Shown piece by piece: positions 603 through 17,650 of a stretch of 20,464 bases of DNA (position 1 is its first letter; each line of letters opens with the position of its first letter). The notes under the pieces are model-generated. The model did no database searches. It saw only the letters and a list, made by a program, of their open reading frames with translations, and had not been told where the DNA came from. The stretch is from a virus. Where the stretch lies: the UHGV virus genome UHGV-0121713; one strand, written 5' to 3'. A program made the position numbers and the translations under genes.

Positions 603-616
603 AACAAAAAACCCAT
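603..616. repeat. Candidate attL core: 14-bp direct repeat AACAAAAAACCCAT, identical copy at 17637..17650
   Basis: Exact 14-mer found at both prophage boundaries (603..616 and 17637..17650), each forming the A-run plus the 5' arm of a terminator hairpin. Confidence 0.45.
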
Positions 617-631
617 TTATGTAAATGGGTT
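603..631 (-). terminator. Intrinsic terminator downstream of int (minus strand), overlapping the attL core
   Basis: Perfect hairpin aacccattta / taaatgggtt at 610..631, preceded on the + strand by an A-run (605..610), i.e. followed by a U-run on the minus strand. Confidence 0.5.
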
Positions 632-690
632 AGTGAAAACAACGACTTGCAAGATAATCAATAAGTTAGGTTGGTGGTCAGTGGTGGTTA

Positions 691-1743
691 TTACGGGGTA
701 ATGCCAACCGCTGCCGCCACTTTGTCGCCACTTGGCAGCGTTGCCAGAGGATTGAAACGGAGCGCCGTTTCCAGATGATCCGGTGCCAGATGTGCGTAAC
801 GCATAGTCATTTTTATATCGTGGTGTCCGAGAATTTTTTGTAAGGCCAGAATGTTTCCACCCGACATCATGAAGTGCGCCGCAAACGTATGGCGCAGAAC
901 GTGTGTGAGTTGACCGCGAGGGAGCACGATAGACGTTTTTTCCATCACGGATAAAAATTGAAAATAGCAGTCTGTGAAGAAATTGAACCCATCAAGCGCC
1001 ATGATCTCTTCGTAAAGCTCTTTACTGATAGGGATGCTTCTGTTTTTCTTCCCCTTCGTTCTTACAAAGGTAATTCGGTATTTGGTCACCTGTGAACGAG
1101 TAAGATTTACGGCTTCTCGCCAGCGTGCGCCTGTGCTTAAGCATATCTTAACTACCAGTGCCAGAATTGGGTCCTGACGTTTGCAATCAGCCAGTAATTC
1201 AACAATCTGCTCATGGGTAAGCCATGCCATCTCTTTTTCTGCGATGGTGAATTTTCGCATGTTCTCCAGTGGGTTCGGATACGACCATTCGCCCAGGCGG
1301 GATAGTTCGCTAAAAACACTACTTAGATAGCTTTGCTCCAGGTTAATGGTGACCGGGCTTGCTCCTTTCTTCCATTTCTCGCTGAAGTAGATCTCACCTG
1401 TCAGGCGTTTATCTCGATAGTGGGCAAACATTTTAGAGGTTAGATCAGTTGCAAGGGGATTGCCCAGAGCGTCAACCATCAGCAGCAATTTGTCATAGAC
1501 ATGCTGCCCAGCAGTCAGTGATTTACCATGTAGTTTGAACCATAGCTCAACCACGTCTTTCAGTGTTCGACGATCCACTGATTCACCTAGCCAGGGCTTT
1601 GCTTCGGTTTCTTCCATCGTGTGACGCTCAAAAGCCAGTGCTTCGCCTTTGGTGGCGAATTGTTTACGCACACGACGCCCACTACGTCCGGCGGGGTAAC
1701 ATTCGCAAAGCCATTTTCCTGTGGTGAGTTTTCGTACAGCCAT
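691..1743 (-). CDS. int: Tyrosine site-specific integrase, P2/186 family, about 350 aa
   Basis: Translation from MAVRKLTTGKWLCECYPAGRSGRRVRKQFATKGEALAFERHT resembles the P2 Int N-terminus. The C-terminal region carries R...HxxR...Y catalytic-type residues (LRHTFAAHF...MRYAHL). The internal ATG at 1743 is preceded by GGAGGG, so the ORF-track start at 1821 is probably an upstream extension. Confidence 0.9.
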   Translation of the reverse strand: MAVRKLTTGKWLCECYPAGRSGRRVRKQFATKGEALAFERHTMEETEAKPWLGESVDRRTLKDVVELWFKLHGKSLTAGQHVYDKLLLMVDALGNPLATDLTSKMFAHYRDKRLTGEIYFSEKWKKGASPVTINLEQSYLSSVFSELSRLGEWSYPNPLENMRKFTIAEKEMAWLTHEQIVELLADCKRQDPILALVVKICLSTGARWREAVNLTRSQVTKYRITFVRTKGKKNRSIPISKELYEEIMALDGFNFFTDCYFQFLSVMEKTSIVLPRGQLTHVLRHTFAAHFMMSGGNILALQKILGHHDIKMTMRYAHLAPDHLETALRFNPLATLPSGDKVAAAVGITP

Positions 1744-1931
1744 AAAAAATGCCCTCCAATAGAGAGCATTTTTACTGTATGTATAACCAGTGTCAATGTA
1801 TGAAATCCTGCGACCATACATCTCACTGAAGCCATAATGAAGTAGGCTATTCTTTTTGCTATGTGATCATGTAACTTTTGCGGTTAACCTGTGGCTCATT
1901 TTTATTTTAGGCGCAGATATAAAAGCAAAAG

Positions 1932-2123
1932 TTATCGTGAGTTTTTAGTACAGATTTTTTTGGATTTACTAATAGTTCCATCATTGCAAACGAATTTGCC
2001 ATCAGAGGTACAGTGAGAAACACCTCCCTTTTTCCCTGAGCAGGGATAATTTCTAGCATAGGTAGCTAGTGGGTTTAATAACAAAGAACATGACAAAACC
2101 ACAAAAAATACCTTACCAAGCAT
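1932..2123 (-). CDS. Small cysteine-rich protein with a predicted signal peptide (63 aa), immediately downstream of cI; candidate lysogenic-conversion (moron) gene
   Basis: [23 protein letters not shown] then a Cys/Lys/Gly-rich mature part with 4 Cys. GGGAG Shine-Dalgarno about 8 nt upstream of the ATG; the start lies 15 bp after the cI stop on the same strand. Confidence 0.5.
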
Positions 2124-2138
2124 AATTTACTCCCGGTA

Positions 2139-2708: not shown

Positions 2709-2732
2709 GGTCACTCCAAGTGAACTTTTATC

Positions 2733-2833: not shown

Positions 2834-3055
2834 ATGAGACCTAACATTTCAATCACTCTTACCACGCCTCATGTGACTATTGAACGCTATAGCGAGCTGA
2901 CAGGGCTATCCATCGATACCATCAATGACATGTTGGCTGATGGACGCCTTATCCGTCACCGTCTGCGCAAAGATAAAAAACGCGAAAAAGTGATGATCAA
3001 CATAGCAGCAATGACCGTTGATGCGCTTTCAGAATGCAATCTAAACCTTAATTAG
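2834..3055 (+). CDS. apl: Apl/Cox-like excisionase and transcriptional regulator (73 aa)
   Basis: Small basic protein, first gene of the rightward operon divergent from cI, GAGG Shine-Dalgarno 9 nt upstream. Assignment is mainly positional, by analogy to 186 apl. Confidence 0.55.
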
Positions 3056-3087
3056 TTCGATTCTGAAATACATCAGAGGCATTGACC

Positions 3088-3597
3088 ATGTTTGATTACC
3101 AAGTTTCCAAACATCCACATTTTGATGAAGCCTGTCGTGCATTTGCACTGCGCCACAATCTGGTGCAACTGGCAGAACGTGCAGGCATGAATGTGCAGAT
3201 TCTGCGGAACAAGCTGAACCCAGCTCAGCCTCATTTATTAACCGCACCAGAAATCTGGCTGCTTACCGATCTGACTGAAGATTCAACGCTGGTAGATGGT
3301 TTTCTGGCACAGATTCATTGTCTGCCATGTGTACCGATTAATGAGGTGGCAAAAGAGAAACTGCCACATTACGTCATGAGTGCAACCGCAGAGATCGGGC
3401 GTGTTGCTGCAGGTGCGGTGTCTGGCGATGTAAAAACCTGTGCCGGTCGTCGTGATGCTATCAGCAGCATTAACTCTGTAACACGACTGATGGCGCTGGC
3501 GGCTGTTTCATTGCAGGCCCGTTTACAGGCTAATCCTGCGATGGCGAGTGCAGTTGATACCGTGACTGGCCTCGGTGCTTCATTTGGTTTGCTGTGA
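3088..3597 (+). CDS. cII: Phage CII-like transcriptional activator (186 CII family), about 169 aa
   Basis: Translation [45 protein letters not shown]... matches my recollection of 186 CII in sequence and size. ATG 3088 has an AGAGG Shine-Dalgarno at 8-nt spacing; the ORF-track start at 3082 is TTG. Confidence 0.75.
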
Positions 3598-3604
3598 GGT
3601 GCTT

Positions 3605-3805
3605 ATGCTGACGAAAGAACCATCATTTGCATCGCTGCTGGTTAAACAAAGCCCGGCAATGCATTACGGTCACGGCTGGATCATGGGGGAGGATGGTAAA
3701 CGCTGGCATCCGTGCCGTTCACAAGATGAATTGCTGGCAGAACTATCTACGAAAAAACGGGGGAACAAATGGCTATTGAAGGCACTGCGGCGACTGTTCC
3801 ATTAA
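3605..3805 (+). CDS. Small early-operon phage protein (66 aa), occupying the position of fil in 186
   Basis: ORF in the early operon directly after cII; start ambiguous (GTG 3575 or ATG 3605). Function not recognisable from sequence. Confidence 0.4.
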   Translation: MLTKEPSFASLLVKQSPAMHYGHGWIMGEDGKRWHPCRSQDELLAELSTKKRGNKWLLKALRRLFH

Positions 3806-4110
3806 GCCCCGGTGAACGCCTGAATGGACTTAATCACATTGCGGAGTTAAGGGCGAAAGTTTTTGGCCTGAATATTGAGTCAGAGCTTGAGCGGTTTATT
3901 AAAGATATGCGTGATTCACGGGATATTAATAGCGAACAAAATAAACGGGCACTGGCTGCCATATTCTTTATGGCAAAAATTCCAGCTGAACGTCATAGCA
4001 TCAGCATTAATGAGCTGACCACTGACGAAAAGCGGGAGTTGATTAAAGCAATGAATCATTTTCGTGCAGTGGTGAGCTTATTTCCCAGACGGCTAACCAT
4101 GCCGAATTAA
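3769..4110 (+). CDS. Hypothetical early-operon phage protein (113 aa)
   Basis: ATG with GGGGGA Shine-Dalgarno 5 nt upstream; overlaps the previous ORF end, suggesting translational coupling. Confidence 0.5.
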   Translation: MAIEGTAATVPLSPGERLNGLNHIAELRAKVFGLNIESELERFIKDMRDSRDINSEQNKRALAAIFFMAKIPAERHSISINELTTDEKRELIKAMNHFRAVVSLFPRRLTMPN

Positions 4111-4177
4111 CCAACTAATGAAATTAATGGCGTAAACCCGCCGGGCATCCCTTTATCTAAATTCAGGAGAATTGATT

Positions 4178-4411
4178 ATGCGTAATATTGAAACCCTCTC
4201 GACCAAAACCGGACCGGATGACGCAGGGCTTAATATTTTACTGACAGAGGCTCGTCTGGAAGAACGCCGGGCAAGGGCTGAAGCAATGGCAGCTCGCCTT
4301 GATAGCTTGGCGTGTCATATCACATCCCGCCAGCTAACCCACGTCGAAGCGGCAGAACTGCTTCGTGTGACTGCTGAAGCAATCCAGAACGAAGCGCAGG
4401 AGATCCACTAA
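4178..4411 (+). CDS. Hypothetical early-operon phage protein (77 aa)
   Basis: ATG 4178 preceded by AGGAGA at 7-nt spacing (ORF-track start 4172 is TTG). Stop overlaps the next start (TAATG). Confidence 0.5.
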   Translation: MRNIETLSTKTGPDDAGLNILLTEARLEERRARAEAMAARLDSLACHITSRQLTHVEAAELLRVTAEAIQNEAQEIH

Positions 4412-4638
4412 TGGCTGATGCAATGGATCTCGTACAGCAGCGCGTTGAAGAAGAACGCCAACGCCATATCCGTGCTGCCCGTGCCAAAACGCCGGGCGTG
4501 TCCCGCGTGCTTTGCATTGAGTGTGAAGCGCCAATTCCGCCAGCACGCCGCCGTGCCATTCCGGGTGTGCAGCTTTGCATTACCTGTCAGGAAATCGCAG
4601 AGCTGAAAGGCAAACATTACAACGGAGGTGCTGTATGA
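4411..4638 (+). CDS. TraR/DksA-family C4 zinc-finger protein (75 aa)
   Basis: CIEC...(17 aa)...CITC four-cysteine motif in a small basic protein; typical phage/conjugative TraR-like protein found before gene A in P2-like phages. Confidence 0.7.
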   Translation: MADAMDLVQQRVEEERQRHIRAARAKTPGVSRVLCIECEAPIPPARRRAIPGVQLCITCQEIAELKGKHYNGGAV

Positions 4639-5492
4639 GCACCATCCTGAAATGGGCGGGAAATAAAACTGCCATAATGTCCGAACTGAAAAAACATCTT
4701 CCTGCTGGCCCGCGACTGGTTGAACCTTTCGCGGGTTCCTGTGCTGTGATGATGGAGACGGATTATCCCAGCTATCTGGTTGCGGATATTAATCCTGATT
4801 TAATCAACCTCTATAAAAAGGTTGCCGCTGATTGTGAATCGTTTATATCTCGCGCCAGAGTTTTATTTGAGATCGCAAACAGGGAGGTGGCTTATTACAA
4901 CATAAGGCAGGAGTTTAATTACTCAACTGAAATTACTGATTTCATGAAAGCGGTATATTTCCTGTATCTCAATCGTCACGGTTACCGTGGTTTATGTCGC
5001 TATAACAAGAGCGGGCATTTCAACATTCCCTACGGTAATTATAAAAATCCGTATTTCCCTGAAAAAGAAATTCGCGCATTTGCAGAAAAGGCCCAGCGAG
5101 CAACGTTTATCTGCGCCAGCTTTGATGAAACGCTGGCGATGTTGAAGGCGGGGGATGTGGTGTATTGCGATCCGCCGTATGACGGTACGTTTTCCGGCTA
5201 TCACACTGACGGCTTCACTGAAGATGACCAGTATCACCTGGCATCTGTTCTTGAACATCGGTCATCAGAAGGACATCCGGTCATTGTTTCTAACAGTGAC
5301 ACATCCCTGATCCGTTCGCTGTATCGCAATTTTACTCACCACTACATCAAGGCAAAACGCAGCATCGGTGTGGCAGCTGGCGAGGGTAAATCAGCAACAG
5401 AAATCATTGCTGTTTCCGGGCCGCGCTGCTGGGTGGGATTTGATTATTCGCGTGGCGTGGATAGTTCTGCCGTGTACGGAGTACGTGCATGA
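4635..5492 (+). CDS. dam: DNA N6-adenine methyltransferase, Dam (D12 class) family, about 285 aa
   Basis: N-terminal LKWAGNK...EPFAGSCAV (SAM-binding motif) and the catalytic DPPY tetrapeptide (CDPPYDGTF). ATG 4635 overlaps the previous stop (ATGA) and its stop overlaps the gene A start. Confidence 0.85.
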
Positions 5493-7903
5493 GTCATGCC
5501 GATATGAACAACTGCTGCGGCTTTAACGAAGCTGCCGCATCGTTCTCATGGAACAGCTCGAAAAAGGCCATTAACCCTTATCTGGACCCGGTGGAAGTTG
5601 CGCCGGTTTCTACGCTTTCAAACCTGATCACTCTGTACGCTGCCGATAACGAGCAGGAACAGCTGCGCCGTGAGGCGCTGAGTGATCAGGTCTGGGAGCG
5701 TTATTTCTTTAATGAATCCCGTGATCCTGTCCAGCGCGAAATGGAACAGGATAAGCTCATTAGTCGGGCAAAGCTGGCGCATGAGCAGCAGCGTTTTAAT
5801 CCGGATATGGTCATTCTGGCGGACGTCAACGCCCAGCCTTCCCATATCAGCAAGCCGCTGATGCAACGTATTGAATACTTCAGCAGCCTGGGCAGGCCAA
5901 AGGCTTATTCCCGCTATTTACGTGAGACGATTAAGCCATGTCTGGAACGACTGGAGCATGTACGCGACAGTCAGCTATCTGCATCTTTTCGCTTTATGGC
6001 AAGCCATGAAGGGCTGGACGGCCTGCTGATCCTGCCTGAAATGAGTCAGGATCAGGTGAAACGCCTGTCCACCCTGGTAGCTGCGCATATGAGTATGTGC
6101 CTTGATGCCGCTTGTGGCGATTTGTATGCCACCGATGACGTTAAGCCAGAAGAAATCCGCAATACATGGGAAAGGGTGGCAGCGGAAACCCTGCGTCTGG
6201 ATGTCATCCCGCCTGCGTTTGAGCAACTCCGTCGGAAAAGAAACCGCCGTAAACCCGTGCCCTATGAACTCATTCCGGGTTCGCTGGCGCGTATGTTGTG
6301 CGCCGACTGGTGGTATCGGAAATTATGGAAGATGCGTTGCGAATGGCGGGAAGAGCAGTTGCGTGCTGTCTGCCTTGTCAGCAAAAAAGCATCTCCCTAT
6401 GTCAGCTATGAAGCCGTGTTGCATAAACGTGAGCAGCGCCGTAAGTCGCTGGAGTTTTTCCGTTCTCATGAACTGGTGAACGAAGACGGCGACACGCTAG
6501 ACATGGAGGATGTGGTAAACGCCAGCAGCAGCAACCCTGCGCATCGCCGCAATGAGATGATGGCCTGTGTTAAAGGTCTGGAGCTTATCGCGGAAATGCG
6601 CGGTGACTGCGCCGTTTTCTACACCATCACCTGTCCGTCACGTTTCCATTCCACGCTAAATAACGGCAGGCCCAACCCGACCTGGACAAATGCGACGGTA
6701 AGACAAAGCAGCGATTATCTGGTCGGTATGTTTGCTGCATTTCGTAAGGCGATGCACAAAGCCGGGTTGCGCTGGTATGGCGTGCGGGTGGCTGAGCCGC
6801 ATCACGACGGCACAGTTCACTGGCACCTGTTGTGTTTCATGCGCAAAAAAGACCGCCGCGCCATTACAGCATTGTTGCGTAAGTTTGCTATCCGTGAAGA
6901 CCGCGAGGAGCTGGGCAATAACACGGGGCCGCGCTTTAAGTCTGAGCTGATTAACCCGCGCAAAGGAACGCCGACAAGCTACATAGCGAAATACATCAGT
7001 AAGAACATTGACGGGCGTGGTCTGACTGGCGAGATCAGCAAGGAAACGGGTAAATCTCTGCGTGATAACGCTGAATACGTGAATGCCTGGGCGTCTTTGC
7101 ATCGTGTTCAGCAATTCCGCTTCTTTGGCATTCCGGGGCGTCAGGCTTACCGTGAACTGCGATTGCTGGCTGGTCAGGCGGCAAGGCAAAAGGGGGACAA
7201 AAAAGCAGGTGCGCCGGTACTGGATAACCCGCGCCTTGATGCCATCCTGGCTGCTGCTGATGCTGGTTGTTTTGCCACCTACATCATGAAGCAGGGCGGC
7301 GTACTGGTTCCCCGTAAATATCACCTCATCAGAACCGCTTATGAAATCAACGAAGAGCCGACCGCCTATGGCGATCACGGCATTCGTATTTATGGCATCT
7401 GGTCACCCATTGCAGAGGGCAAGATCTGCACTCATGCAGTGAAGTGGAAAATGGTTCGTAAAGCCGTTGACGTTCAGGAGGCGGCAGCCGACCAGGGCGC
7501 TTGCGCCCCTTGGACTCGTGGCAATAACTGTCCCCTTGCTGAAAATTTGAACCAACAGGAGAAAGATAAATCAGCTGATGGGGACACCAGAACGGACATT
7601 ACCCGCATGGATGACAAGGAGTTGCACGATTACCTGCACAGTATGAGCAAAAAAGAGCGCCGGGAACTGGCTGCAAGGTTACGCCTGGTGAAACCGAAAC
7701 GGCGTAAAGACTACAAACAGCGAATTACAGACCATCAGCGACTGCAGCTCGTCTATGAGCTGAAGTCCAGAGGATTTGATGGTAGCGAGAAAGAGGTCGA
7801 TTTACTCCTTCGCGGCGGCAGTATTCCGTCAGGAGCAGGCCTGCGTATCTTCTATCGGAACCAGCGTTTGCAGGAAGATGATAAGTGGCGGAACCTGTAT
7901 TAA
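5489..7903 (+). CDS. A: P2 gpA-family replication initiation (rolling-circle nicking) protein, 804 aa
   Basis: Large protein at the end of the early operon with the size and position of P2/186 gene A. Contains a HWHLLCF-type histidine-hydrophobic motif and tyrosine-rich motifs ([10 protein letters not shown]) typical of rolling-circle initiators. Confidence 0.85.
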
Positions 7904-7972
7904 TTACGCGGGTTAACAATTCGTGCTCTTAATAATACCAGGCATATCAGGCTGATGAACGTAAAAAAACGT

Positions 7973-8015
7973 TTTACATCAGTAATATTATTATATACTG
8001 TAAATATAAACAGTA
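7973..8015 (+). promoter_or_regulatory. SOS-regulated promoter: -35 TTTACA (7973..7978), -10 TATACT (7994..7999), overlapping LexA box TACTGTAAATATAAACAGTA (7996..8015)
   Basis: 20-bp site matches the LexA consensus CTGT-N8-ACAG with an AT-rich centre and overlaps the -10, the classic SOS operator arrangement. It lies inside the ORF-track ORF beginning at 7955, which argues against that start. Confidence 0.7.
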
Positions 8016-8056
8016 GTTATCTATACAGTATTGTTTGCGGTGTCATAGGAGGAAAG

Positions 8057-8245: not shown

Positions 8246-8255
8246 GGTGACTTTT

Positions 8256-8933: not shown

Positions 8934-11054
8934 ATGAGTACATATCATAATGATCAGCCAATACTAGGTGGTCAAAATGACCCCGATTTATTAAACAGGC
9001 TCGATTTTGCAAATCACTTGGCAAATATTCTACTATTAAATCACAATGATGATTGCCTTACTGTATCTATAGAGGCAGAGTGGGGATATGGTAAAACGTC
9101 AGTGATAAATCTTATAAAAGGTGCTTTGAATGAAAAGGAGTTCTTACCAATAATAATAGAATATAATCCATGGCTGGCCGGTCAACCTGAATCCTTGATT
9201 CAGGATTTTTTATTACAGTTCTCTTCACAACTAAATATTAAAGACAATTCAAAAGCTGCTTTGGAAGCTTCAAAAGAATTAATTGCATACTCCAATCTCT
9301 TCAGTGTAGCAAAACTTATTCCAGGGACAGAACCTTGGGCATCTATCATAGAAAAAGTCCTCTCTAATTTTGGGAGTGCTACTAAAAAGATTGCTGAATT
9401 AAAAAAACTGGATCTTTTAGGTAGAAAAAAACAAGTAGAGAAGGCAATAAAAAAAATAAAAAATCCTATTGTGGTAATAATTGATGATATTGATCGATTG
9501 ACTCCTGCAGAAACTTTTCAAGTTTTACGATTGGTTAAAGCAGTTGCAGATTTCTCAGGAACTTCTTTTTTACTTGCATTTGATCCTAATTATTTGATTT
9601 CTGTGCTTGATAAAAATAATATCGTCAATTCTTCGGAGTATCTTAATAAAATTGTTCAACTTCGAGTCCCACTTCCTGTAATCTCAGAAAGGGGTATGAA
9701 TGAACTTGCAAATGCAGAACTGGAAAAGATAGCTAATAAATCTTTAACTGACAGATTCGAAAGTGATCAAGAAAGACTAAGCTGGATTTATCATAATTAT
9801 TTTAAAAAACTAATTAAGAATCCGAGAGAGTTAAAAAGATTTTTTAACCATTTGAGATTCGTTTTAGAGCAAATTGAAGGGCAGGTATGTTTTTCTGATC
9901 TCTTTGCTTTATCTCTGGTCGCCACTAAATCGAGTTTGGTATACGAGCATATTAAAAGCACACCAGAGGCATATATAGGGAAGAGATTCACTAATGATGG
10001 CCTTTTGATGGATAAACCTCAAGATATTGTGGATAGATTTAGTGATGAGCGAAATAAGAAACTGAGTAATTTTTCTGATCAAGAGCGTTCAGTGATGCAG
10101 GAACTCTTAGGAGATATTTTCCCACTTCTACAGTCAAGCGGGTATTCTCATTATGGGGTTTCTGATCCCGATACAGCAGGAAGGGTTTCTGCACCACAAA
10201 GGCTTCATATTGCGTTTCATTATAAAACTCCAGCAGGGTATATTTCTGATCATGATATTATCAGTTTCATTAATGGAGATGTCAAAAGAAACGAATTTCT
10301 AAGAGATGTGCTCTCGCAAAATGCAGAAGAAAGATTTTTTGAAATGATGAATAATTATTCGAGTTATTGTAAGGATAATAGTTTTGAAATATTAACGTGT
10401 ATTTATGATACTTTTCTGTTTTCTCAAGAATTGAAATCCTCATTGGAAAGAAACTATGGTTTTTTGACAAAAGATCTTTATAGAAGGATGAATTGGCTCA
10501 CTAATAAGGTAATATCTGAAAGTGATGATAAATATGGGTTAATAAAGGGGGTTGTAGGTAGGCATGAGAATGCGCCACTTGGTGCAGACGTATTATGCCA
10601 AGCTCGTAAACAGATTCAAAATGGATGGAATGACAAAATATGGGTTAGTATTGAAGAATTGGCTGAACTTGAAGGTATCTTTCAACAGGTGGCTATTAAA
10701 GTTTTAAGTGATAAAATATATTTTGATTATCATCTTGAATCTCATATATTTTTCGAATTAAAGAGAGTTTCATCTCAATTTACATCAGAGTTTATTGCTT
10801 CTGTATTATCAAGTGATGGCCTGATTAGGATGTGTGAGATTATTGGTGAAACAGGTAGTGATTCAACAAATGGCCCTTATTTTAAGTTTGATGAAATTTA
10901 CTTCGGGGAAATACTTGATGTGAATGAACTTCGAAATAAAGCGAAAAATTTAGATTTTTCAATTTATCCCACACGCATTCAAGCTGTACTTAAGAGTATT
11001 CTGGATGGACAAAAATATTATTTGAGAGATGCAACTGTTGGTGAAGATTGGTAA
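8934..11054 (+). CDS. KAP-family P-loop NTPase (PifA-like), about 706 aa; candidate abortive-infection/defence protein
   Basis: Walker A EAEWGYGKTS (about 9072..9101) and KAP-type Walker B IVVIIDDIDRL (about 9465..9500). Gene is visibly AT-rich with several A7-A8 tracts, unlike the flanking phage backbone. ORF-track start 8928 is TTG; the first ATG is 8934. Confidence 0.7.
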   Translation: MSTYHNDQPILGGQNDPDLLNRLDFANHLANILLLNHNDDCLTVSIEAEWGYGKTSVINLIKGALNEKEFLPIIIEYNPWLAGQPESLIQDFLLQFSSQLNIKDNSKAALEASKELIAYSNLFSVAKLIPGTEPWASIIEKVLSNFGSATKKIAELKKLDLLGRKKQVEKAIKKIKNPIVVIIDDIDRLTPAETFQVLRLVKAVADFSGTSFLLAFDPNYLISVLDKNNIVNSSEYLNKIVQLRVPLPVISERGMNELANAELEKIANKSLTDRFESDQERLSWIYHNYFKKLIKNPRELKRFFNHLRFVLEQIEGQVCFSDLFALSLVATKSSLVYEHIKSTPEAYIGKRFTNDGLLMDKPQDIVDRFSDERNKKLSNFSDQERSVMQELLGDIFPLLQSSGYSHYGVSDPDTAGRVSAPQRLHIAFHYKTPAGYISDHDIISFINGDVKRNEFLRDVLSQNAEERFFEMMNNYSSYCKDNSFEILTCIYDTFLFSQELKSSLERNYGFLTKDLYRRMNWLTNKVISESDDKYGLIKGVVGRHENAPLGADVLCQARKQIQNGWNDKIWVSIEELAELEGIFQQVAIKVLSDKIYFDYHLESHIFFELKRVSSQFTSEFIASVLSSDGLIRMCEIIGETGSDSTNGPYFKFDEIYFGEILDVNELRNKAKNLDFSIYPTRIQAVLKSILDGQKYYLRDATVGEDW

Positions 11055-11645: not shown

Positions 11646-12221
11646 ATGCTTTTACCCGTAAGTGTTACATCGTGTGGCTTGTATCACCCCTACTGGCATT
11701 TGGGAGAGCGCAACCCTCATAGCGATGAACTATCAAGGCAGATGATGGATTTTAAGGATGAAAATAATCGTAATCATCAAAGGGCTATTAACCGTTTTTC
11801 TCGATTAGCTATAGATAAGGTTGGGCGGTTAGTAATCAGAGGTGGCGGTGGGCGTTTTGTTGAGTCTCCTTTTTCGATAGCAGTCGTCCCATCTCACACT
11901 GAAGGCAGAATTTCACCGGCTTTGATTGAGGTCGCCGAGCGAATCGTAAATGTTCACCGTCGGGGCATTGTTGATTGCTGTTTGGAAAGAACACGCACTG
12001 TTCCTAGCGCACATCGTGAAGGAGGAGATCGCTCAATTACTGGTCACATGTCTAGTATCAGAGTTAGGGGTGGTAACCTCATGGGGCGAAATGTGTTACT
12101 ACTAGATGATGTTAAAACAACAGGCGGTAGTTTGTCTGCGTGTTTTTATTTACTGGAGTCTGCAGGAGCTGGAGTTATAATGCCATTAGCTCTGCTAGAA
12201 ACTGCAAACTATGAGGAGTAG
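11646..12221 (+). CDS. Type I phosphoribosyltransferase (PRTase) domain protein, 191 aa; candidate defence effector (ShosT-like / ComF-like)
   Basis: PRPP-binding signature VLLLDDVKTTGGSL (hydrophobic stretch-DD-x-x-TTG). In-frame TAA two codons upstream fixes the 5' limit. Overlaps the next gene by 11 nt. Confidence 0.7.
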   Translation: MLLPVSVTSCGLYHPYWHLGERNPHSDELSRQMMDFKDENNRNHQRAINRFSRLAIDKVGRLVIRGGGGRFVESPFSIAVVPSHTEGRISPALIEVAERIVNVHRRGIVDCCLERTRTVPSAHREGGDRSITGHMSSIRVRGGNLMGRNVLLLDDVKTTGGSLSACFYLLESAGAGVIMPLALLETANYEE

Positions 12222-13185
12222 CAAAGTGCACTCAGAAGAATTAAAAAATACACTTGGATTAGCTATTCAAATCGGGAAGCTAGCATCTGATCAAAGTGTA
12301 TTGAAATTCTTTGAGCTTATTGATTTTGATGTTATTCGTGATATACGCGACTTAACTGAGATGGTTAATAGCCACGGGTTTCTAAAAGATAAAATATCTG
12401 AGACTGATTTTCTAATAGCGAATGCTGAATTGGAGAACCACCATGTTAATGGTGTGGAGCTAATACCATATGGGTCTGAATTCTATCCTCTTAGTTTAGC
12501 GTTTACTCCTAATCCACCATCAATTCTCTACATAAAAGGGGATAAAAGTATACTAAAAGAATTGCCGGGTGTCGCAATTGTAGGATCCCGTGATACTTCC
12601 CCTGCAGGGGAAGAAATAACGAGGCGAATCACTAATCAGATAGTGTCTGCTGGGTATATTGTTGTAAGTGGGTTAGCAATAGGCACTGATGCGAATGCTC
12701 ATAAGGCAACGTTACAAGCAAAAGGAAAAACCATTGCTGTCTTGGCGCATGGTCTTGAGGAGGCTAAGCCGAAGCAAAACAGTCGACTTGCTCAAGAGAT
12801 TCTGGATAAAGGTGGTGCATGGATTTCTGAGTATCCTATGGGGCGACCGGCCCAGAAACAATCATTTGTACAAAGAAATCGGATACAAGTTGGATTATCT
12901 GCAGGTTCAATTTTAATCGAGGCTGCGTTAAATAGCGGAACGATAACTCAAGCTGAGTTTGCAAATAAGGCTAAAAGACCAGTGTTTGCGGTTGTACCTC
13001 ACCTACCTAATAATCCGCTTAATCTTAATTGTGAGGGAACAGTTGATTTAGTTAAGAGCAACATGGCTAGAGCGTTAAAAACAAAACGGGATTATGATGA
13101 TGTGATTATGATCATAAATGAGTCTCGGGAGTATTTGTTAGAGCTAAAATGGCCAGGGAAACAGAGTACATTAGACTTGATTTAA
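12211..13185 (+). CDS. DprA/Smf-like (SLOG-superfamily Rossmann) protein, about 320 aa; candidate defence partner (ShosA-like)
   Basis: DprA core motifs VAIVGSRDTSPAGEE and IVVSGLAIGTDANAHKA, then TIAVLAHGLEE and RNRIQVGLS. Start is ATG 12211 or GTG 12226 (the latter has a GGAG Shine-Dalgarno at 7-nt spacing). Confidence 0.75.
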   Translation: MRSSKVHSEELKNTLGLAIQIGKLASDQSVLKFFELIDFDVIRDIRDLTEMVNSHGFLKDKISETDFLIANAELENHHVNGVELIPYGSEFYPLSLAFTPNPPSILYIKGDKSILKELPGVAIVGSRDTSPAGEEITRRITNQIVSAGYIVVSGLAIGTDANAHKATLQAKGKTIAVLAHGLEEAKPKQNSRLAQEILDKGGAWISEYPMGRPAQKQSFVQRNRIQVGLSAGSILIEAALNSGTITQAEFANKAKRPVFAVVPHLPNNPLNLNCEGTVDLVKSNMARALKTKRDYDDVIMIINESREYLLELKWPGKQSTLDLI

Positions 13186-13209: not shown

Positions 13210-13866
13210 CTAAATTTGATATCTCTCGAATTTTATAATTTCTTCACCGCTCCAATGATTAAATTCTTTCATTCTTTTTTGTAATGGTAATAATTCATTT
13301 TTCACAAATACCTTACTAGCTTTTTCTACATCCCCAAATCCCCCAACATTATTAGGCATTATCCCCATCATCTGTGGCGGAACGCGATGTGCTGCCATCA
13401 TGTCATCCCGGCTCACGTTCTTGATATTTAGAAACTCATCCTTCGCCGCAACTTCTGACAAAGGGATGATCTGAAGGCCGTCCTTTTTGCCGTTAGGCGA
13501 GTACATAAACAGGTTGCGGAAGTTACCCGGACCTTTGGCACTTTTCATTGCATTGCGGAGGTTGTTCACGTCCTCCTGGTTCTGCGCAGCATCGGTCATG
13601 TACATGATGAAGCCTGCATGACTACCGTTAATGTAATACTTGCGGCGGAACAGCGTGGCGGACTCATTGAGCAGGGCGGACGGAATGGCAGAAAGATAGC
13701 TGGGCAGGCCGTAGATCTCCTGGTTAATGTCCGGTTCCATCAGATGAAAAATGCTGCCTTTCGTGAACTGATACGGCTGGGTTGTCATACCGTATTGCAC
13801 AAACCAGTAGGTATCCAGGTCTAACCCGCGTCGGGTGTATTTTGCCAGAGCAGGCTCAAGGGCGAC
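13210..13866 (-). pseudogene. Q: 3' fragment of the portal gene Q (P2 gpQ family), 5'-truncated by deletion
   Basis: Encodes about 218 aa of portal-like C-terminal sequence (...YINGSHAGFIMYMTD...LQIIPLSEVAAKDEF...). The open frame runs upstream into unrelated sequence; the N-terminal third and the adjacent terminase P are absent. Upper boundary is approximate. Confidence 0.65.
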
Positions 13867-14054
13867 AACGACAACACCGGATTGAGGAACTGAAACGTGA
13901 GAACGAGGATTTACGCCGCTGGGCTGATACACCTTTGCCTGCTGACATTATCCGGCTGCGGGAACGCCCCACACTCACCGGAGGTGCAGATTACCGTCAG
14001 TGGTTGTCCGCGAGTGACGCCGTGTCGGCTGGGACAGGCAGCGCCGCGCACTAA
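13866..14054 (+). pseudogene. lysB: 3' fragment of lysB (Rz-like inner-membrane spanin), 5'-truncated
   Basis: Coiled-coil, charged C-terminal peptide ...HRIEELKRENEDLRRWADTPLPADIIRLRERP directly upstream of R, as in P2 (lysA-lysB/lysC-R-S). No holin or endolysin upstream. Boundary approximate. Confidence 0.45.
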
Positions 14055-14187
14055 CGGTGGCCTGAACGCGTTGCTGGATGAAACGGAGGCCGCCTGGGCG
14101 GTCTGTGCAGACAAAGTGGACATGATTATTGCGTGTCAGGAGCGAAACAGTGAACAAACCACAATCCCTGCGCCACGCCCTCAATAA
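13897..14187 (+). CDS. lysC: LysC-like (Rz1-type outer-membrane spanin lipoprotein) embedded ORF; probably non-functional remnant
   Basis: +1-frame ORF inside lysB with lipobox LTLSGC and a proline-rich tail; GTG start; stop overlaps the R start. Confidence 0.35.
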   Translation: MRTRIYAAGLIHLCLLTLSGCGNAPHSPEVQITVSGCPRVTPCRLGQAAPRTNGGLNALLDETEAAWAVCADKVDMIIACQERNSEQTTIPAPRPQ

Positions 14188-14581
14188 AGCGGTGCCTTAT
14201 GTCCGCAATAACCCGGACAAACTGCATCTGTTTGTGGATAACGGTTCGCTGGTTGCCACGGGGGCCAGCTCCATGTCATGGGAGTACCGCTATACCCTGA
14301 ACGTGGTGATAGAGGATTTCAGCGGCGACCAGAATCTGCTGATGGCCCCGGTTTTACTGTGGCTTCGGGATAACCAGCCCGATGCCATCAATAACCCGGC
14401 GTTACGGGAAAAGCTATTCACCTTTGAGGTGGATATTTTGCGCAACGATGTCTGTGATATCAGCCTTAACCTGCAATTGACGGAACGTGTGCTGGTCAGT
14501 ACTGACGGCAGTGTGTCGAGCGTTGAAGCTGTAGCAGAACCCGATGAACCTGAAGAAATGTGGACGGTGAAACGTGGCTGA
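14150..14581 (+). CDS. R: Tail completion protein (P2 gpR family), about 143 aa
   Basis: MNKPQSLRHALNKAVPYVRNNPDKLHLFVDNGS... resembles my recollection of P2 gpR (MLKPDSLRRAL...IFVDNGS). GTG 14150 with AGGAG Shine-Dalgarno at 7 nt; ORF-track start 14129 is TTG. Confidence 0.7.
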   Translation: MNKPQSLRHALNKAVPYVRNNPDKLHLFVDNGSLVATGASSMSWEYRYTLNVVIEDFSGDQNLLMAPVLLWLRDNQPDAINNPALREKLFTFEVDILRNDVCDISLNLQLTERVLVSTDGSVSSVEAVAEPDEPEEMWTVKRG

Positions 14582-15020
14582 ACTGCAGAAGGTGGACGAC
14601 TGGCTGAGTGCCTTGCTGGCGAATCTGGAACCAGCCACGAGAAGCCGCATGATGCGCCAGCTGGCGCAGGAACTGCGCCGGACACAGCAGCAGAATATCA
14701 GGATGCAGCGCAATCCAGATGGCAGCAGTTATGAACCGCGCAGGGTAACAGCACGCAGCAAGAAAGGCCGCATCAAACGTCAGATGTTTGCAAAGTTGCG
14801 CACCACAAAATACCTGAAAACTGCCGCCAGCGCCGACTCTGCCAGCGTACAGTTTGAAGGCAAGGTGCAGCGTATTGCCCGTGTTCACCATTACGGCCTG
14901 CGTGATCGCGTCAGTCGCAAAGGACCGGAGGTCCGTTACGCAGAGCGCCGCCTGCTGGGTGTAAATGATGATGTTGAGGCAATGACCCGCGACATGATTC
15001 TGCAATGGCTGGCGGGGTGA
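14574..15020 (+). CDS. S: Tail completion / virion morphogenesis protein (P2 gpS family), 148 aa
   Basis: Follows R with overlapping GTG start and stop (GTGGCTGA), matching the P2 R-S order and size. Confidence 0.65.
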   Translation: MAELQKVDDWLSALLANLEPATRSRMMRQLAQELRRTQQQNIRMQRNPDGSSYEPRRVTARSKKGRIKRQMFAKLRTTKYLKTAASADSASVQFEGKVQRIARVHHYGLRDRVSRKGPEVRYAERRLLGVNDDVEAMTRDMILQWLAG

Positions 15021-15088
15021 TCTTTGTATCAGCACTGATACAAGTTGCAGCACTGCCGCCTTTCTTCCCCTGATGGCAACCTTTCCCT

Positions 15089-15295
15089 ATGAACGCACAA
15101 TTAACCGAAATCATGCGCCTTATCACCAACCTGATCCGCACTGGTGTAGTCACCGAAGTGGACCGGGAAAACTGGCTTTGCCGGGTGAAAACGAGCGACC
15201 TTGAAACCAACTGGATTAACTGGCTGACGCTGCGCGCGGGTAAACGCGCTGCCGCAGGACAAGCGCCTGTCTGCCATGACTATGTTGTTTGGTAA
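15089..15295 (+). pseudogene. V: 5' fragment of baseplate spike gene V (68 codons), truncated
   Basis: MNAQLTEIMRLITNLIRTGVVTEVDRENWLCRVKTSDLETNWINWLTLRAGK resembles the P2 gpV N-terminus; the frame ends after 68 codons where tape-measure-like sequence begins in another frame. Confidence 0.6.
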
Positions 15296-16082
15296 AGAGT
15301 TTGGCGATGACGCGGCGAAACTGGCAAACAACCTGCCGGAACTGCAGCGTCAGTTAAAACTGACAGCGGGCAATGATGCGCTTGGCTCCATGCAGAAAGA
15401 ATCCGACATTAACAAGGATTCACTTTCTGCGCAGTGGTTGCTGGTCAAAACCGGAGCGCAGAACACCTTCAGCAGCCTGGGCGAAACGCTGCGCCAGCCG
15501 CTGATGGATATTCTGTACACGGTGAAAAGCATCACGGGAGCGTTGCGCCGCTGGGTGGAAGCTAACCCGGAACTGACAGGCACACTGATGAAAGTATCGG
15601 CTGTTGTGGCTGCGGTTACCGTCGGCCTCGGCACCTTAGCGGTGGCGCTGGCTGCAGTGCTGGGGCCGCTGGCAGTGATCCGTCTGGGATTCTCTGTGTT
15701 GGGTATCAAAACGTTATCTTCCGTTACGGCAGCAGTAACTCGAACCAGCAGCGCGTTGTCCTGGCTGGCTGGCGCACCACTGGCACTGCTGCGACGCGGG
15801 CTTGCTTCATCGGGCAACGCCGCAGGTTTACTTACTGCGCCGTTGTCGTCTTTGCGCCGCACGGCATCACTGACGGGAAATGTCCTGAAAACTGTAGCAG
15901 GTGCGCCGGTTGCACTTTTGCGGTCTGGATTATCCGGTTTACGTGCTGTTGCTGTGATGTTTATGAATCCTCTGGCGGTACTGCGCGGTGGACTGGCCGC
16001 CGCAGGCACGGTGCTGCGAGTACTGGCATCTGGTCCACTGAATCATTGTCCGATATGTTCGGTGATCTCAGTGCGCAACTGA
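15276..16082 (+). pseudogene. T: Internal fragment of tail tape-measure gene T
   Basis: Ala/Leu/Gly-rich repetitive hydrophobic segment typical of tape-measure proteins; only about 268 codons, abutting the V fragment. W, J, I, H, G, FI, FII, E and most of T/U are absent. Confidence 0.55.
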
Positions 16083-16149
16083 ATAATCTGCAGGACACGG
16101 CAACGTCTGCCTTAAGCGATATCAGTAAAACGGTGGGAGGGCTGCTGTC

Positions 16150-17250
16150 GTGAATTTCAGCTCTGAACTGCTTAACAAAGGCAACAAAACTCCCGCATTC
16201 AGCATCAGTATTGAGGGCAGGGATATCACCACTGTGCTGGATAACCGCCTGATGAGTCTGACGCTGACGGACAATCGGGGCTTTGAAGCGGACCAGCTTG
16301 ATCTGGAGCTGGACGACGCCGATGGAAAAATAGCGCTGCCGCGCCGTGGTGCGGTCGTTACGCTGGCGCTGGGCTGGAAGGGGCAGCCGCTTTTCCCGAA
16401 AGGGGCATTCACGGTGGACGAGATTGAACACACTGGCGCACCGGACCGCCTGACTATCCGGGCGCGAAGTGCTGATTTTCGGGAAACGCTGAATACCCGC
16501 CGTGAAAAGTCGTGGCACAAGACCACTGTCGGGGAAGTGGTGAAGGAAATAGCTGTGCGGCACAAACTGAAGATGGCACTGGGTAAAGACCTGTCAGATA
16601 AACCCGTGGAACATATAGACCAGACCAATGAGAGTGACGGCAGTTTTCTGATGCGGCTGGCGCGCCAGTACGGTGCTATTGCGTCGGTGAAAAATGGCAA
16701 TCTGTTATTCATCCGGCAGGGACAGGGTAAAAGCGCCAGCGGTAAACCACTACCGGTGATCACTATCACACGTAAGGACGGCGACAGTCACCGCTTTACC
16801 CTGGCAGATCGCGGAGCCTATACGGGCGTAATTGCCAGTTGGTTGCATACCCGCGAACCCGCGAATAAAGAAAGCACCACGGTGAAGCGTAAGCGCAGGA
16901 CTAAGAAGCAGAAGAAAGAGCCGGAAGCGAAGCAGGGCGATTACCTGGTGGGTACGGATGAAAACGTGCTGGTACTTAATCGCACCTATGCCAACCGGAG
17001 CAACGCCGAACGGGCGGCAAAAATGCAGTGGGAACGCCTGCAACGCGGCGTTGCGTCATTCTCGCTACAACTGGCGGAAGGGCGGGCAGATCTCTACACG
17101 GAAATGCCAGTGAAAGTCAGTGGCTTTAAACAGCTGATAGATGATGCGGAATGGACCATTACGACTCTGACACATACCGTCAGCCCGGATAACGGTTTTA
17201 CGACCAGTCTGGAGCTTGAAGTGAGGATTGATGATTTCGAAATGGAATGA
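16150..17250 (+). CDS. D: Tail protein D (P2 gpD / late control D family), 366 aa
   Basis: Position immediately before ogr at the prophage right end, and size, match P2 gpD. GTG start with GGGAGG Shine-Dalgarno at 9 nt, overlapping the stop of a short upstream U-like remnant frame. Confidence 0.75.
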   Translation: MNFSSELLNKGNKTPAFSISIEGRDITTVLDNRLMSLTLTDNRGFEADQLDLELDDADGKIALPRRGAVVTLALGWKGQPLFPKGAFTVDEIEHTGAPDRLTIRARSADFRETLNTRREKSWHKTTVGEVVKEIAVRHKLKMALGKDLSDKPVEHIDQTNESDGSFLMRLARQYGAIASVKNGNLLFIRQGQGKSASGKPLPVITITRKDGDSHRFTLADRGAYTGVIASWLHTREPANKESTTVKRKRRTKKQKKEPEAKQGDYLVGTDENVLVLNRTYANRSNAERAAKMQWERLQRGVASFSLQLAEGRADLYTEMPVKVSGFKQLIDDAEWTITTLTHTVSPDNGFTTSLELEVRIDDFEME

Positions 17251-17340
17251 TTCTTCGCAATGGAGAACTTTTAAGTTTGCAAAATGGAATAATGCGGTAT
17301 CATTATTGTGAATTTAGCAAAAATGGGGAGAACTCGAAAA

Positions 17341-17559
17341 ATGATGATTTGCCCACTGTGTGGAAGTGCCGCCCATACTCGCAGCAGTTTTCAGGTATCT
17401 TCATTGACCAAAGAGCGTTACAACCAGTGCCAGAACATTAACTGCAGCCATACTTTTGTTACCCATGAAACTTTTGTTCGTTCGATTGCAACGCCAAAAG
17501 AGTCAAATCCGGTTCAGCCGCATCCAATGAAATCAGGACAGGTAGCGCTCTCTCTTTGA
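17341..17559 (+). CDS. ogr: Ogr/Delta-family zinc-finger late transcription activator, 72 aa
   Basis: MMICPLCGSAAHTRSS...ERYNQCQNINCSHTF matches the P2 Ogr CxxC...CxxxxC zinc-finger pattern and its 72-aa length. ORF-track start 17308 is an upstream GTG extension. Confidence 0.8.
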   Translation: MMICPLCGSAAHTRSSFQVSSLTKERYNQCQNINCSHTFVTHETFVRSIATPKESNPVQPHPMKSGQVALSL

Positions 17560-17636
17560 CGCTGCCGCCATTTTGTCGCCATCGTTAAAAAACAGTGCTT
17601 CTAACATCATGATCTTAAACAGCTTAAATTTCAGGC

Positions 17637-17650
17637 AACAAAAAACCCAT
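17637..17650. repeat. Candidate attR core: AACAAAAAACCCAT, identical to 603..616
   Basis: Exact 14-bp direct repeat of the left boundary, located between ogr and the ybjL 3' end. Confidence 0.45.

What the first reader, a model, noticed from the sequence alone, without database searches (positions are those of the whole stretch)
603..17650. Prophage bounded by 14-bp direct repeats and inserted into the intrinsic terminator between rcdA and ybjL
The exact 14-mer AACAAAAAACCCAT occurs at both boundaries, and each copy forms the A-run plus 5' stem arm of a hairpin terminator. The phage therefore appears to have integrated into the ybjL terminator and rebuilt a terminator at the int end, the protein-gene analogue of tRNA 3'-end integration. 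This would preserve termination of ybjL and insulate rcdA from int read-through.
Basis: partly seen in the sequence, partly recalled or inferred. Interest (0 to 1): 0.5.

Follow-up and report, generated by a model that had tools for sequence, protein, structure and literature searches.

The report
Defective P2-like prophage in rybB

Summary
AACAAAAAACCCAT occurs only at 603-616 and 17637-17650. Prophage-free E. coli (K-12 C600, MG1655) carry exactly one copy, joining the window's left and right flanks. About 4,290 of 5,426 complete E. coli genomes have the empty site and 1,109 carry the same rcdA-attL-int junction.

The interpretation needs correcting. The right-hand hairpin is the terminator of the sigma-E-dependent sRNA gene rybB (Rfam RF00110, 97.7 bits, full length, 17637-17715 minus strand). 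MG1655 annotates rybB there. The 14-mer is the 3' stem arm plus U-tract of RybB. This is therefore sRNA-gene 3'-end integration, not a protein-gene analogue of tRNA integration.

Published work already names rybB as the attachment site of P2/Fels-2-like prophages ("Rybb" prophages of E. coli B, W and Crooks; Kpn38RybB; Felsduovirus hotspot #29).

The int-side hairpin is not rebuilt on integration. It pre-exists in attP, which is contiguous in Klebsiella phage KP12.

The element has a 186-type integrase, Cox/Apl, CI and consensus arm sites. It has lost about 17 kb of head, lysis and tail genes through three internal deletions, so it is defective.

In E. coli hosts with a different flank the repeat is 26 bp, not 14. 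Novelty: already known.

The parts
50..586 (+). rcdA (ybjK), left host flank
   Evidence: RefSeq annotation of identical sequence in BE311 and K-12
603..616 (.). attL core copy (14-mer); a duplicate of the last 14 nt of rybB
603..631 (-). Phage-borne intrinsic terminator of the int-cI operon. The 5' arm and loop (617-631) are phage DNA. The 3' arm and U-tract (603-616) are the core.
   Evidence: same hairpin in contiguous attP of phage KP12 and in 20 attL sites of other genera
691..1743 (-). Tyrosine integrase, 186/P2 type (350 aa)
   Evidence: Pfam Int_N + Phage_integrase, phrog_1, annotated 'phage integrase' in BE311
712..733 (+). P' arm: two tandem 186-type Int arm-binding repeats, TGCCGCCACTT and TGTCGCCACTT
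   Evidence: consensus tgccGCCActt from PMC3448106
2139..2708 (-). CI repressor (186 type)
   Evidence: Pfam Phage_CI_repr + Phage_CI_C
2834..3055 (+). Cox/Apl-like excisionase and switch protein
   Evidence: phrog_575, E 6e-31
3088..8489 (+). Early operon: CII, Fil, DUF5347, DUF2732, TraR/DksA, Dam, replication endonuclease A (5489-7903) and a DinI-like (Tum-position) protein (8256-8489)
   Evidence: BE311 annotation at 100% identity; Pfam DinI
8934..11054 (+). Cargo: PifA-like KAP-family P-loop NTPase (candidate abortive-infection gene) in a low-GC moron region
   Evidence: PADLOC PifA 1e-64, Pfam KAP_NTPase; GC 32-36%
11646..13185 (+). Cargo: ShosT (11646-12221) and ShosA (DprA-like, 12211-13185) defence pair
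   Evidence: PADLOC ShosT 4e-14, ShosA 3e-70
13210..13865 (-). Portal gene fragment (C-terminal two thirds only); ends at deletion junction 1 (13865/13866)
   Evidence: phrog_68 positions 121-338 of 344; junction mapped against BE311
13866..15243 (+). lysB fragment, lysC, tail genes R and S, and the start of V; ends at deletion junction 2
   Evidence: 100% identical to BE311 L003 16853-15474; annotation
15244..16040 (+). Internal fragment of the tape-measure gene T; ends at deletion junction 3
   Evidence: phrog_28 partial
16150..17250 (+). Late control/tail gene D (intact)
17341..17559 (+). ogr/Delta zinc-finger late activator
   Evidence: Pfam Ogr_Delta 5e-22
17563..17584 (+). P arm: tandem 186-type arm repeats, TGCCGCCATTT and TGTCGCCATCG
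17637..17650 (.). attR core copy (14-mer); the 3' stem arm plus U-tract of rybB
17637..17718 (-). rybB sRNA gene, intact. It has 3 SNPs relative to K-12: one at nt 21 and two in the terminator loop.
   Evidence: Rfam RF00110 97.7 bits, model 1-79/79; MG1655 annotation b4417
17725..17751 (-). rybB sigma-E promoter: GAACTT (17751-17746), 16-nt spacer, TCTTA (17729-17725); on the host side of the junction
   Evidence: read; consensus GGAACTTTT / GTCAAA in PMC1804206
17795..19480 (-). ybjL, right host flank

Best explanation
The interval 617-17650 is a defective Fels-2/186-like (P2-like, Peduoviridae) prophage. Its 186-type tyrosine integrase inserted it into the 3' end of the sigma-E-dependent small-RNA gene rybB.

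The att core shared by phage and host is the last 14 nt of rybB (AUGGGUUUUUUGUU on the minus strand), that is, the 3' arm of the RybB terminator stem plus its U-tract. In many hosts the identity extends 5-12 bp beyond the gene. Strand exchange takes place inside the 14-mer. As a result:
- attR keeps a complete rybB with its own promoter (shown).
- attL joins the duplicated 14 nt to a phage-supplied 5' arm. Together these form the terminator the phage already uses for its int-cI operon (structure shown; termination activity inferred).
- Int arm sites on both arms, int and cox/apl are intact, so excision is plausible (inferred).
- Three internal deletions totalling 16,982 bp removed terminase, capsid, holin/lysozyme and most tail genes. 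The element cannot make particles or lyse the cell (shown by gene content).
For: Boundaries:
- The 14-mer is unique to the two junctions.
- The empty sites in C600 and MG1655 equal the joined flanks with one copy.
- 4,294 of 5,426 complete E. coli genomes have the uninterrupted site. 1,109 have the same rcdA-attL-int junction, and in empty genomes the match stops exactly at window 616.

rybB:
- Rfam RybB is full length at 97.7 bits against a gathering score of 40.
- MG1655 annotates rybB (b4417) overlapping the 14-mer by 11 nt.
- The sigma-E motifs are intact upstream (PMC1804206).

attP:
- ogr-attP-int is contiguous at 97.5% identity in Klebsiella phage KP12.
- Klebsiella phage 4LV2017 has annotated 19-20-nt attL/attR with the same core beside the same rybB sequence.

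Recombination machinery:
- Int and Cox/Apl are present.
- Arm repeats match the published 186-type consensus tgccGCCActt on both arms.

Crossover position: in type II and type III hosts attL keeps the host flank and attR keeps the phage flank.

Defectiveness: the window is 100% identical to the 34-kb BE311 prophage except for three deletions, and the portal and tape-measure genes are fragments.

Literature:
- rybB is named as the insertion site of P2-like 'Rybb' prophages in E. coli B, W and Crooks (PMC3032704).
- An island lies 'precisely within the gene for RybB' in K. pneumoniae (PMC4048246).
- Felsduovirus prophages integrate in rybB in 109 genomes (PMC10121019).
- The E. coli HS prophage next to rcdA excises and re-lysogenises a rebuilt attB. 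Its right homology arm starts 77 bp downstream of ogr, which is exactly the window's spacing between ogr and the core (bioRxiv 10.1101/2024.06.12.598711).
Against: - No experiment here shows termination at either hairpin, RybB expression in the lysogen, or excision of this remnant.
- The exact cleavage positions within the 14-mer are not determined.
- No complete RefSeq E. coli genome carries the same three deletion junctions. I cannot exclude that some of them are assembly artefacts of the source genome rather than real deletions.
- A cos site was not located.
Confidence: 0.93

Rival explanations
1. One reading: the phage targets the intrinsic terminator of the protein gene ybjL and rebuilds a terminator for int. 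This would be a protein-gene analogue of tRNA 3'-end integration.
For: The hairpin is the first intrinsic terminator downstream of ybjL on the same strand. No other terminator is evident in the 80 nt between the ybjL stop and rybB, so ybjL read-through probably ends there. Both hairpins fold as predicted.
Against: The hairpin lies inside a separately promoted, annotated sRNA gene (PMC1804206). The phage hairpin pre-exists in attP. Published work names the site as rybB.
Confidence: 0.04
2. The shared hairpin geometry reflects what the integrase needs (an inverted repeat as core-binding sites), not RNA-level terminators. On this view the 'terminator' at attL is a by-product.
For: Tyrosine recombinases bind inverted core sites. 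The 3' arm is fixed by the need to match attB.
Against: The complementary arms lie at different distances from the core: a 4-nt loop in attP against about 17 nt in rybB. They therefore cannot both be Int sites at a fixed spacing. Across 22 attL/attP sequences the phage 5' arm changes only A to G or C to T. These changes keep G·U pairs in the int-sense RNA but would give A·C mismatches on the other strand. Serratia and Yersinia relatives recombine at the same site with no phage-side hairpin.
Confidence: 0.03

Closest known systems
'Rybb' P2-like prophages of E. coli B, W and Crooks; PhiECO1 / 'P2' of E. coli HS; NC-MV of NC101; Felsduovirus hotspot #29 (PMC3032704, PMC3448106, PMC12803456, PMC10121019, bioRxiv 10.1101/2024.06.12.598711)
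   Same: Same integration site (rybB, between rcdA and ybjL), same int-to-ogr orientation, and the same Fels-2/186-like regulatory and replication genes. The same junction is present in 1,109 of 5,426 complete E. coli genomes. The moron hotspot between gene A and the portal carries defence genes.
   Different: This copy has lost about half its genome through three internal deletions. Its cargo is a PifA-like NTPase plus ShosTA, rather than, for example, the retron Ec86 of Rybb*B.
Klebsiella phage 4LV2017 (Elveevirus, NC_047818) and island Kpn38RybB (PMC4048246)
   Same: Int about 95% identical at the DNA level over the att-proximal part. Same core, with attL/attR annotated as (G)CAGGCAACAAAAAACCCAT next to the same rybB terminator.
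   Different: Klebsiella host. The att identity is 19-20 bp, against 14 bp here, because the K-12-type E. coli flank differs. These elements are full length and carry different cargo (a retron-type effector).
Coliphage 186 (tRNA-Ile) and Fels-2 / SopEPhi (ssrA tmRNA)
   Same: 186-type integrase with tandem tgccGCCActt arm repeats on both arms; CI / Apl(Cox) / CII switch; integration into the 3' end of a structured RNA gene, with the gene restored by phage-borne sequence.
   Different: The target is an Hfq-dependent sRNA gene. Only its terminator 3' arm and U-tract (11-14 nt) are duplicated, rather than tens of nucleotides of a tRNA or tmRNA.
P2-like prophages at the cyaR sRNA locus (Wphi2, P2*B and the K-12 ogr-D' remnant; table in PMC3032704)
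   Same: Another sRNA gene used as an att site by P2-like phages, and another site where remnants decay to fragments.
   Different: Different integrase specificity and a different sRNA. I did not analyse that site here.

Membership tests
rybB-integrating P2/Fels-2-like prophages ('Rybb', Felsduovirus hotspot #29) | The att core lies in the 3' end of rybB, and rybB remains intact at one junction | tested here: met
   Rfam RybB 1-79/79 ends at 17637, the first base of the 14-mer. MG1655 rybB overlaps the 14-mer by 11 nt.
rybB-integrating P2/Fels-2-like prophages ('Rybb', Felsduovirus hotspot #29) | The empty site has a single core copy and equals the joined flanks | tested here: met
   C600 and MG1655; 4,294 genomes with the uninterrupted site
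rybB-integrating P2/Fels-2-like prophages ('Rybb', Felsduovirus hotspot #29) | A contiguous attP (ogr - core - int) exists in a phage genome | tested here: met
   Klebsiella phage KP12 OM835953, 884 nt at 97.5% identity
186-type site-specific recombination system | Tyrosine integrase with an N-terminal arm-binding domain and a catalytic domain | tested here: met
   Pfam Int_N 3e-32 and Phage_integrase 7e-22
186-type site-specific recombination system | At least two direct arm repeats, consensus tgccGCCActt, on each side of the core | tested here: met
   712-722 and 723-733 are exact. 17563-17573 is exact and 17574-17584 has 2 mismatches. Consensus from PMC3448106.
186-type site-specific recombination system | Cox/Apl recombination directionality factor divergent from cI | tested here: met
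   phrog_575, 6e-31, at 2834-3055 opposite cI at 2139-2708
186-type site-specific recombination system | Int-dependent excision and integration activity of this copy | not testable with these tools
   Shown only for the related E. coli HS prophage
Intact (viable) P2-like prophage | Complete Q-P-O-N-M-L head module, lysis cassette and V-to-U tail module | tested here: not met
   Three deletions remove 16,982 bp. The portal and tape-measure genes are truncated. Terminase, capsid, holin, lysozyme, baseplate, fibres, sheath and tube are absent.
RybB sRNA (RF00110) | Covariance-model score above the gathering threshold, over the full length | tested here: met
   97.7 bits against 40, E 3e-19
RybB sRNA (RF00110) | Sigma-E promoter upstream | tested here: met
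   GAACTT-N16-TCTTA, 6 nt before the G start, compared with the GGAACTTTT / GTCAAA consensus (PMC1804206). This is a sequence match only.
Intrinsic (rho-independent) terminator at attL | GC-containing stem-loop directly followed by a U-tract on the transcribed strand | tested here: met
   9-bp stem, 4-nt loop, UUUUUUGUU; -9.4 kcal/mol, z -2.2
Intrinsic (rho-independent) terminator at attL | Transcripts actually end there | not testable with these tools
   Needs Term-seq or 3' RACE
   The rybB promoter and gene lie between the ybjL stop (17795) and the core

The most novel reading that the evidence does not exclude
The placement may be regulatory rather than neutral. rybB is strongly sigma-E-induced. 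After integration it points at ogr, the late-gene activator, only 78 nt away and convergent, so terminator read-through under envelope stress could make antisense RNA against ogr and D. At the other junction, the int-cI mRNA ends in a copy of RybB's own Hfq-type 3' end (GGGUU plus a U-run), which could tie the prophage's lysogeny transcript to Hfq. Nothing here tests either idea.
Probability: 0.04. Interest if true: 0.5.

Novelty: already known. Interest (0 to 1): 0.15.

Why it matters
The main value is as a corrected annotation. The site is occupied in about one in five complete E. coli genomes, and it has already been described as 'Rybb' prophages and as Felsduovirus hotspot #29.

I did not see three small points spelled out in the papers I read:
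- The core is precisely the terminator 3' arm plus U-tract, and the phage's own int terminator shares it.
- E. coli carries at least three attB flank variants, giving 26-bp or 14-bp identity with attP. All three are lysogenised.
- Copies at this site decay by independent internal deletions.

None of these opens a long-standing question.

Tried and rejected
- tRNA/tmRNA scan of the window found none, so this is not tRNA-type integration.
- A search for the P2 cos sequence as I recall it (GGCGAGGCGGGGAAAGCAC, up to 3 mismatches) found nothing. My recalled sequence may not apply to this lineage, so I draw no conclusion.
- Literature searches pairing ybjL or ybjK with prophage terms gave almost nothing. 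The site is indexed under rybB, which I recognised only after the Rfam hit.
- A search for attB together with 'rho-independent terminator' gave no relevant general treatment.
- Rfam at a permissive E-value around attL shows no partial RybB hit. The 14-nt duplicate is too short to score.
- I tried short 59-61-nt queries to count attB flank types separately. This failed because megablast seeded in the shared right half and extended through the mismatches. I replaced it with a 60-row evenly spaced sample and four fetched examples. The resulting occupancy by flank type is roughly 15-29% in each class. It is only a rough, phylogenetically confounded estimate.
- I considered that the 14-bp match might mean a secondary or poor site. 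I rejected this because lysogens are common in K-12-type hosts, for example BL21.
- I considered a satellite or PICI. I rejected this because the element is 100% identical to a full P2-like prophage apart from the deletions.
- Loci longer than about 20 kb, and loci fetched second or later in a parallel batch, did not appear in the scripting folder. I worked around this with smaller fetches.


Full report
**1. The observation**

AACAAAAAACCCAT occurs exactly twice in the 20,464-base window, at 603-616 and 17637-17650. There are no extra hits at one mismatch, and none of 100 shuffles gave two hits.

On the minus strand each copy supplies the 3' arm and U-tract of a hairpin:
- 631..610 AACCCAUUU-acau-AAAUGGGUU followed by UUUUGUU (-9.4 kcal/mol). 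The terminator scan also picked this one up.
- 17684..17645 GCCCAUCAACCCC...GGUUGAUGGGU followed by UUUUUGUU (-23.2 kcal/mol).

**2. The empty-site test**

I joined the window's flanks with a single 14-mer to make a synthetic empty site. It matches 4,294 of 5,426 complete E. coli genomes end to end. K-12 C600 and MG1655 have one copy of the 14-mer, and their sequence is attL-left plus core plus attR-right, base for base apart from loop SNPs.

The attL-int junction is present in 1,109 genomes. In genomes without the prophage the match stops at window position 616, the last base of the 14-mer. The boundaries are therefore correct.

**3. What the right-hand hairpin is**

Rfam finds one family in the window. 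It is RybB (RF00110), full length (model 1-79 of 79), 97.7 bits against a gathering score of 40, on the minus strand at 17637-17715. The MG1655 record annotates rybB (b4417) at the same place, and the 14-mer covers its last 11 nt plus 3 nt.

Upstream on the host side are GAACTT, a 16-nt spacer, TCTTA, and then a G start 6 nt later. These match the sigma-E motifs described for rybB in the ybjK-ybjL intergenic region (PMC1804206).

The 'ybjL terminator' is therefore the terminator of a separately promoted sRNA gene. I saw no other terminator between the ybjL stop (17795) and rybB, so ybjL read-through probably ends at the same hairpin. That is inference. The window's rybB differs from K-12 at three positions: one after the seed region and two in the terminator loop.

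**4. The phage side**

I reconstructed attP as the ogr end, one core and the int end. It is contiguous at 97.5% identity over 884 nt in Klebsiella phage KP12, including the hairpin AACCCGTTTACATAAATGGGTT. The int-side terminator is therefore a phage feature that exists before integration. Recombination within the shared 3' arm leaves both hairpins unchanged.

Klebsiella phage 4LV2017 has attL and attR annotated as (G)CAGGCAACAAAAAACCCAT next to the same rybB sequence.

I retrieved integrase relatives from one genome per species. Twenty-six loci from Escherichia, Klebsiella, Raoultella, Citrobacter, Enterobacter, Kluyvera, Buttiauxella, Serratia, Yersinia and other genera carry int followed by ATGGGTTTTTTGTTGCCTG and then host-specific sequence. 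The general core is therefore at least 19 nt.

In 22 aligned attL/attP hairpins (the KP12 row is offset because I mis-specified its coordinates), the phage-supplied 5' arm varies only by A to G at stem position 6 (10 of 22) or C to T (1 of 22). These changes give G·U or U·G pairs in the int-sense RNA but would give A·C mismatches in the opposite sense. This is modest support for an RNA-level role on the int strand. True compensatory changes cannot occur, because the 3' arm must match attB.

Serratia and Yersinia relatives (Int 70-74% identical) use the equivalent core TCGGGTTTTTTGTTGCCTG but have no complementary phage arm. The hairpin is therefore not required for recombination.

**5. Recombination machinery**

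The following are present:
- The integrase has Int_N and catalytic domains.
- A Cox/Apl-like protein lies opposite a 186-type CI.
- Tandem repeats TGCCGCCACTT and TGTCGCCACTT (712-733) and TGCCGCCATTT and TGTCGCCATCG (17563-17584) flank the core in the same orientation. They match the 186-type arm-site consensus tgccGCCActt (PMC3448106).

**6. Extent of the core and position of the crossover**

Left of the 14-mer the phage has TAAATTTCAGGC, while the K-12-type host has TAAGTTTTAGAT (8 of 12 identical). E. coli is polymorphic at this position:
- O157:H7 and other strains have an empty site identical to attP over 26 bp.
- A second type has TAAATTTTAGAT.
- K-12 and this window have TAAGTTTTAGAT.

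Lysogens occur on all three backgrounds: WP8-S18-ESBL-07 on the first, A30 on the second, and BL21 and this window on the third. In the second and third types attL keeps the host flank and attR keeps the phage flank. The exchange therefore lies within the 14-mer.

An evenly spaced sample of 60 of the 5,430 matching records gives occupancies of roughly 15-29% in each mismatch class. I see no sign that the four mismatches block integration. The sample is small and is not corrected for phylogeny.

**7. State of the prophage**

The window is 100% identical to the locus in E. coli BE311, F41, K99S and EC24.26, but there the prophage is about 34 kb. Mapping against BE311 shows three internal deletions:
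- After 13865: from the N-terminal part of the portal gene through terminase, scaffold, capsid, small terminase, L, X, holin, lysozyme and part of lysB. About 6.9 kb.
- After 15243: from V through part of T. About 8.7 kb.
- After 16040: the end of T and U. About 1.3 kb.

The junctions show 2-5-nt microhomologies.

What remains is int, cI, cox/apl, the early operon with replication gene A, a DinI-like gene at the Tum position, the cargo region, fragments of the portal and tape-measure genes, R, S, D and ogr. The element can plausibly excise and replicate. It cannot package DNA or lyse the cell.

No complete RefSeq E. coli genome has these junctions. Strain isolateD carries an independent V-to-T deletion at the same site, so decay by deletion recurs here.

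**8. Comparison with what is known**

- Archer et al. list 'rybB ncRNA' as the insertion site of the P2-like prophages Rybb*W, Rybb*B and Rybb*Cr (PMC3032704).
- Hochhauser et al. describe hotspot #29, occupied only by Felsduovirus prophages integrated within rybB, in 109 genomes, carrying defence systems at dedicated positions (PMC10121019).
- Nilsson et al. grouped PhiECO1 (HS), PhiECO2, PhiECO3 (CFT073) and PhiSEN1 as sharing one site, without mentioning the sRNA (PMC3448106).
- The E. coli HS prophage next to rcdA is inducible through Tum and LexA, and it re-lysogenises a strain with a rebuilt attB. The right homology arm used there starts 77 bp downstream of ogr, which is the window's distance from the ogr stop (17559) to the core (17637) (bioRxiv 10.1101/2024.06.12.598711).
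- NC-MV of NC101 lies between ybjL and rcdA (PMC12803456).

**9. Verdict**

The finding is a known integration site, read without recognising the sRNA gene that defines it. Novelty is 'already known' and interest is low.

Noticed in passing
window 13865/13866, 15243/15244, 16040/16041: There are three clean internal deletions (about 6.9, 8.7 and 1.3 kb; 16,982 bp in all) relative to a prophage in BE311, F41, K99S and EC24.26 that is otherwise 100% identical. The junctions have 2-5-nt microhomology. The remnant (17,034 bp) is almost exactly half of the intact 34,016 bp. No complete RefSeq E. coli genome has these junctions.
   Followed up: yes
window 8934-11054: A low-GC (32-36%) cargo gene encodes a 706-aa KAP-family P-loop NTPase. 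Its best PADLOC match is PifA (1e-64), the abortive-infection protein of the F plasmid.
   Followed up: partly
window 11389-13185: A ShosT/ShosA-like defence pair is present: a PRTase-like ShosT at 11646-12221 and a DprA-like ShosA at 12211-13185. RefSeq annotates only the DprA-like gene in BE311. A 90-aa ORF at 11389-11661 overlaps the ShosT start in another frame, so the toxin gene may be frameshifted or mis-started.
   Followed up: partly
window 591-602 and empty sites of E. coli genomes (L087-L091): The 12 nt downstream of rybB are polymorphic in E. coli. The variants are TAAATTTCAGGC (O157:H7 and others, identical to attP), TAAATTTTAGAT, and TAAGTTTTAGAT (K-12 and this window). All differences are transitions clustered within 9 bp. 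Lysogens occur on all three backgrounds.
   Followed up: partly
window 17637-17718 (minus strand): This strain's rybB differs from K-12 at three positions: U to C at nt 21, just after the seed region, and two changes in the terminator loop (CCAUUU to CUACUU). Another lysogen (SWYHX138.33gt) has the K-12 loop, so the changes are not linked to lysogeny.
   Followed up: partly
L012, L021, L022, L053, L067 (downstream of int): In several genera 350-870 bp of unrelated DNA, in some cases with a small ORF, sits between the integrase stop and the attL hairpin. The last 10-14 Int residues are replaced. This looks like a second moron insertion point at the int-att border.
   Followed up: no
L027, L058, L030, L079: Serratia and Yersinia relatives of the integrase (70-74% identity) sit at a core TCGGGTTTTTTGTTGCCTG. 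The sequence downstream of int has no arm complementary to it, so these phages lack the int-side terminator hairpin seen in the Escherichia/Klebsiella lineage.
   Followed up: partly
L011 (JAEWTL010000113.1): A 3-kb contig binned as 'MAG: Bacillota bacterium' carries a 99%-identical integrase, the attL and the E. coli rcdA 3' end. It is almost certainly an Escherichia contig mis-binned into the MAG.
   Followed up: no
L004 (OM835953.1, Klebsiella phage KP12 clone KP12_3): This GenBank record is classified under Vequintavirinae, but it is a 34.8-kb P2-like genome with contiguous ogr-attP-int. The taxonomy label looks wrong, or the clone is an induced prophage co-purified with the named phage.
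   Followed up: no
L009 (E. coli isolateD, NZ_CP135488.1): The rybB-site prophage of this strain has its own internal deletion, from after V to the middle of the tape-measure gene, which is annotated as a pseudogene. Deletion decay therefore happens repeatedly at this site.
   Followed up: partly
window 632-680: Between the attL hairpin and the int stop there are degenerate direct repeats of the form ACTTATTG(A/T)TT. They are clearer in the Klebsiella phages, as CTAACTTATTGTTTT twice. These are candidate Cox/Apl or IHF sites in the P' arm. Not tested.
   Followed up: no
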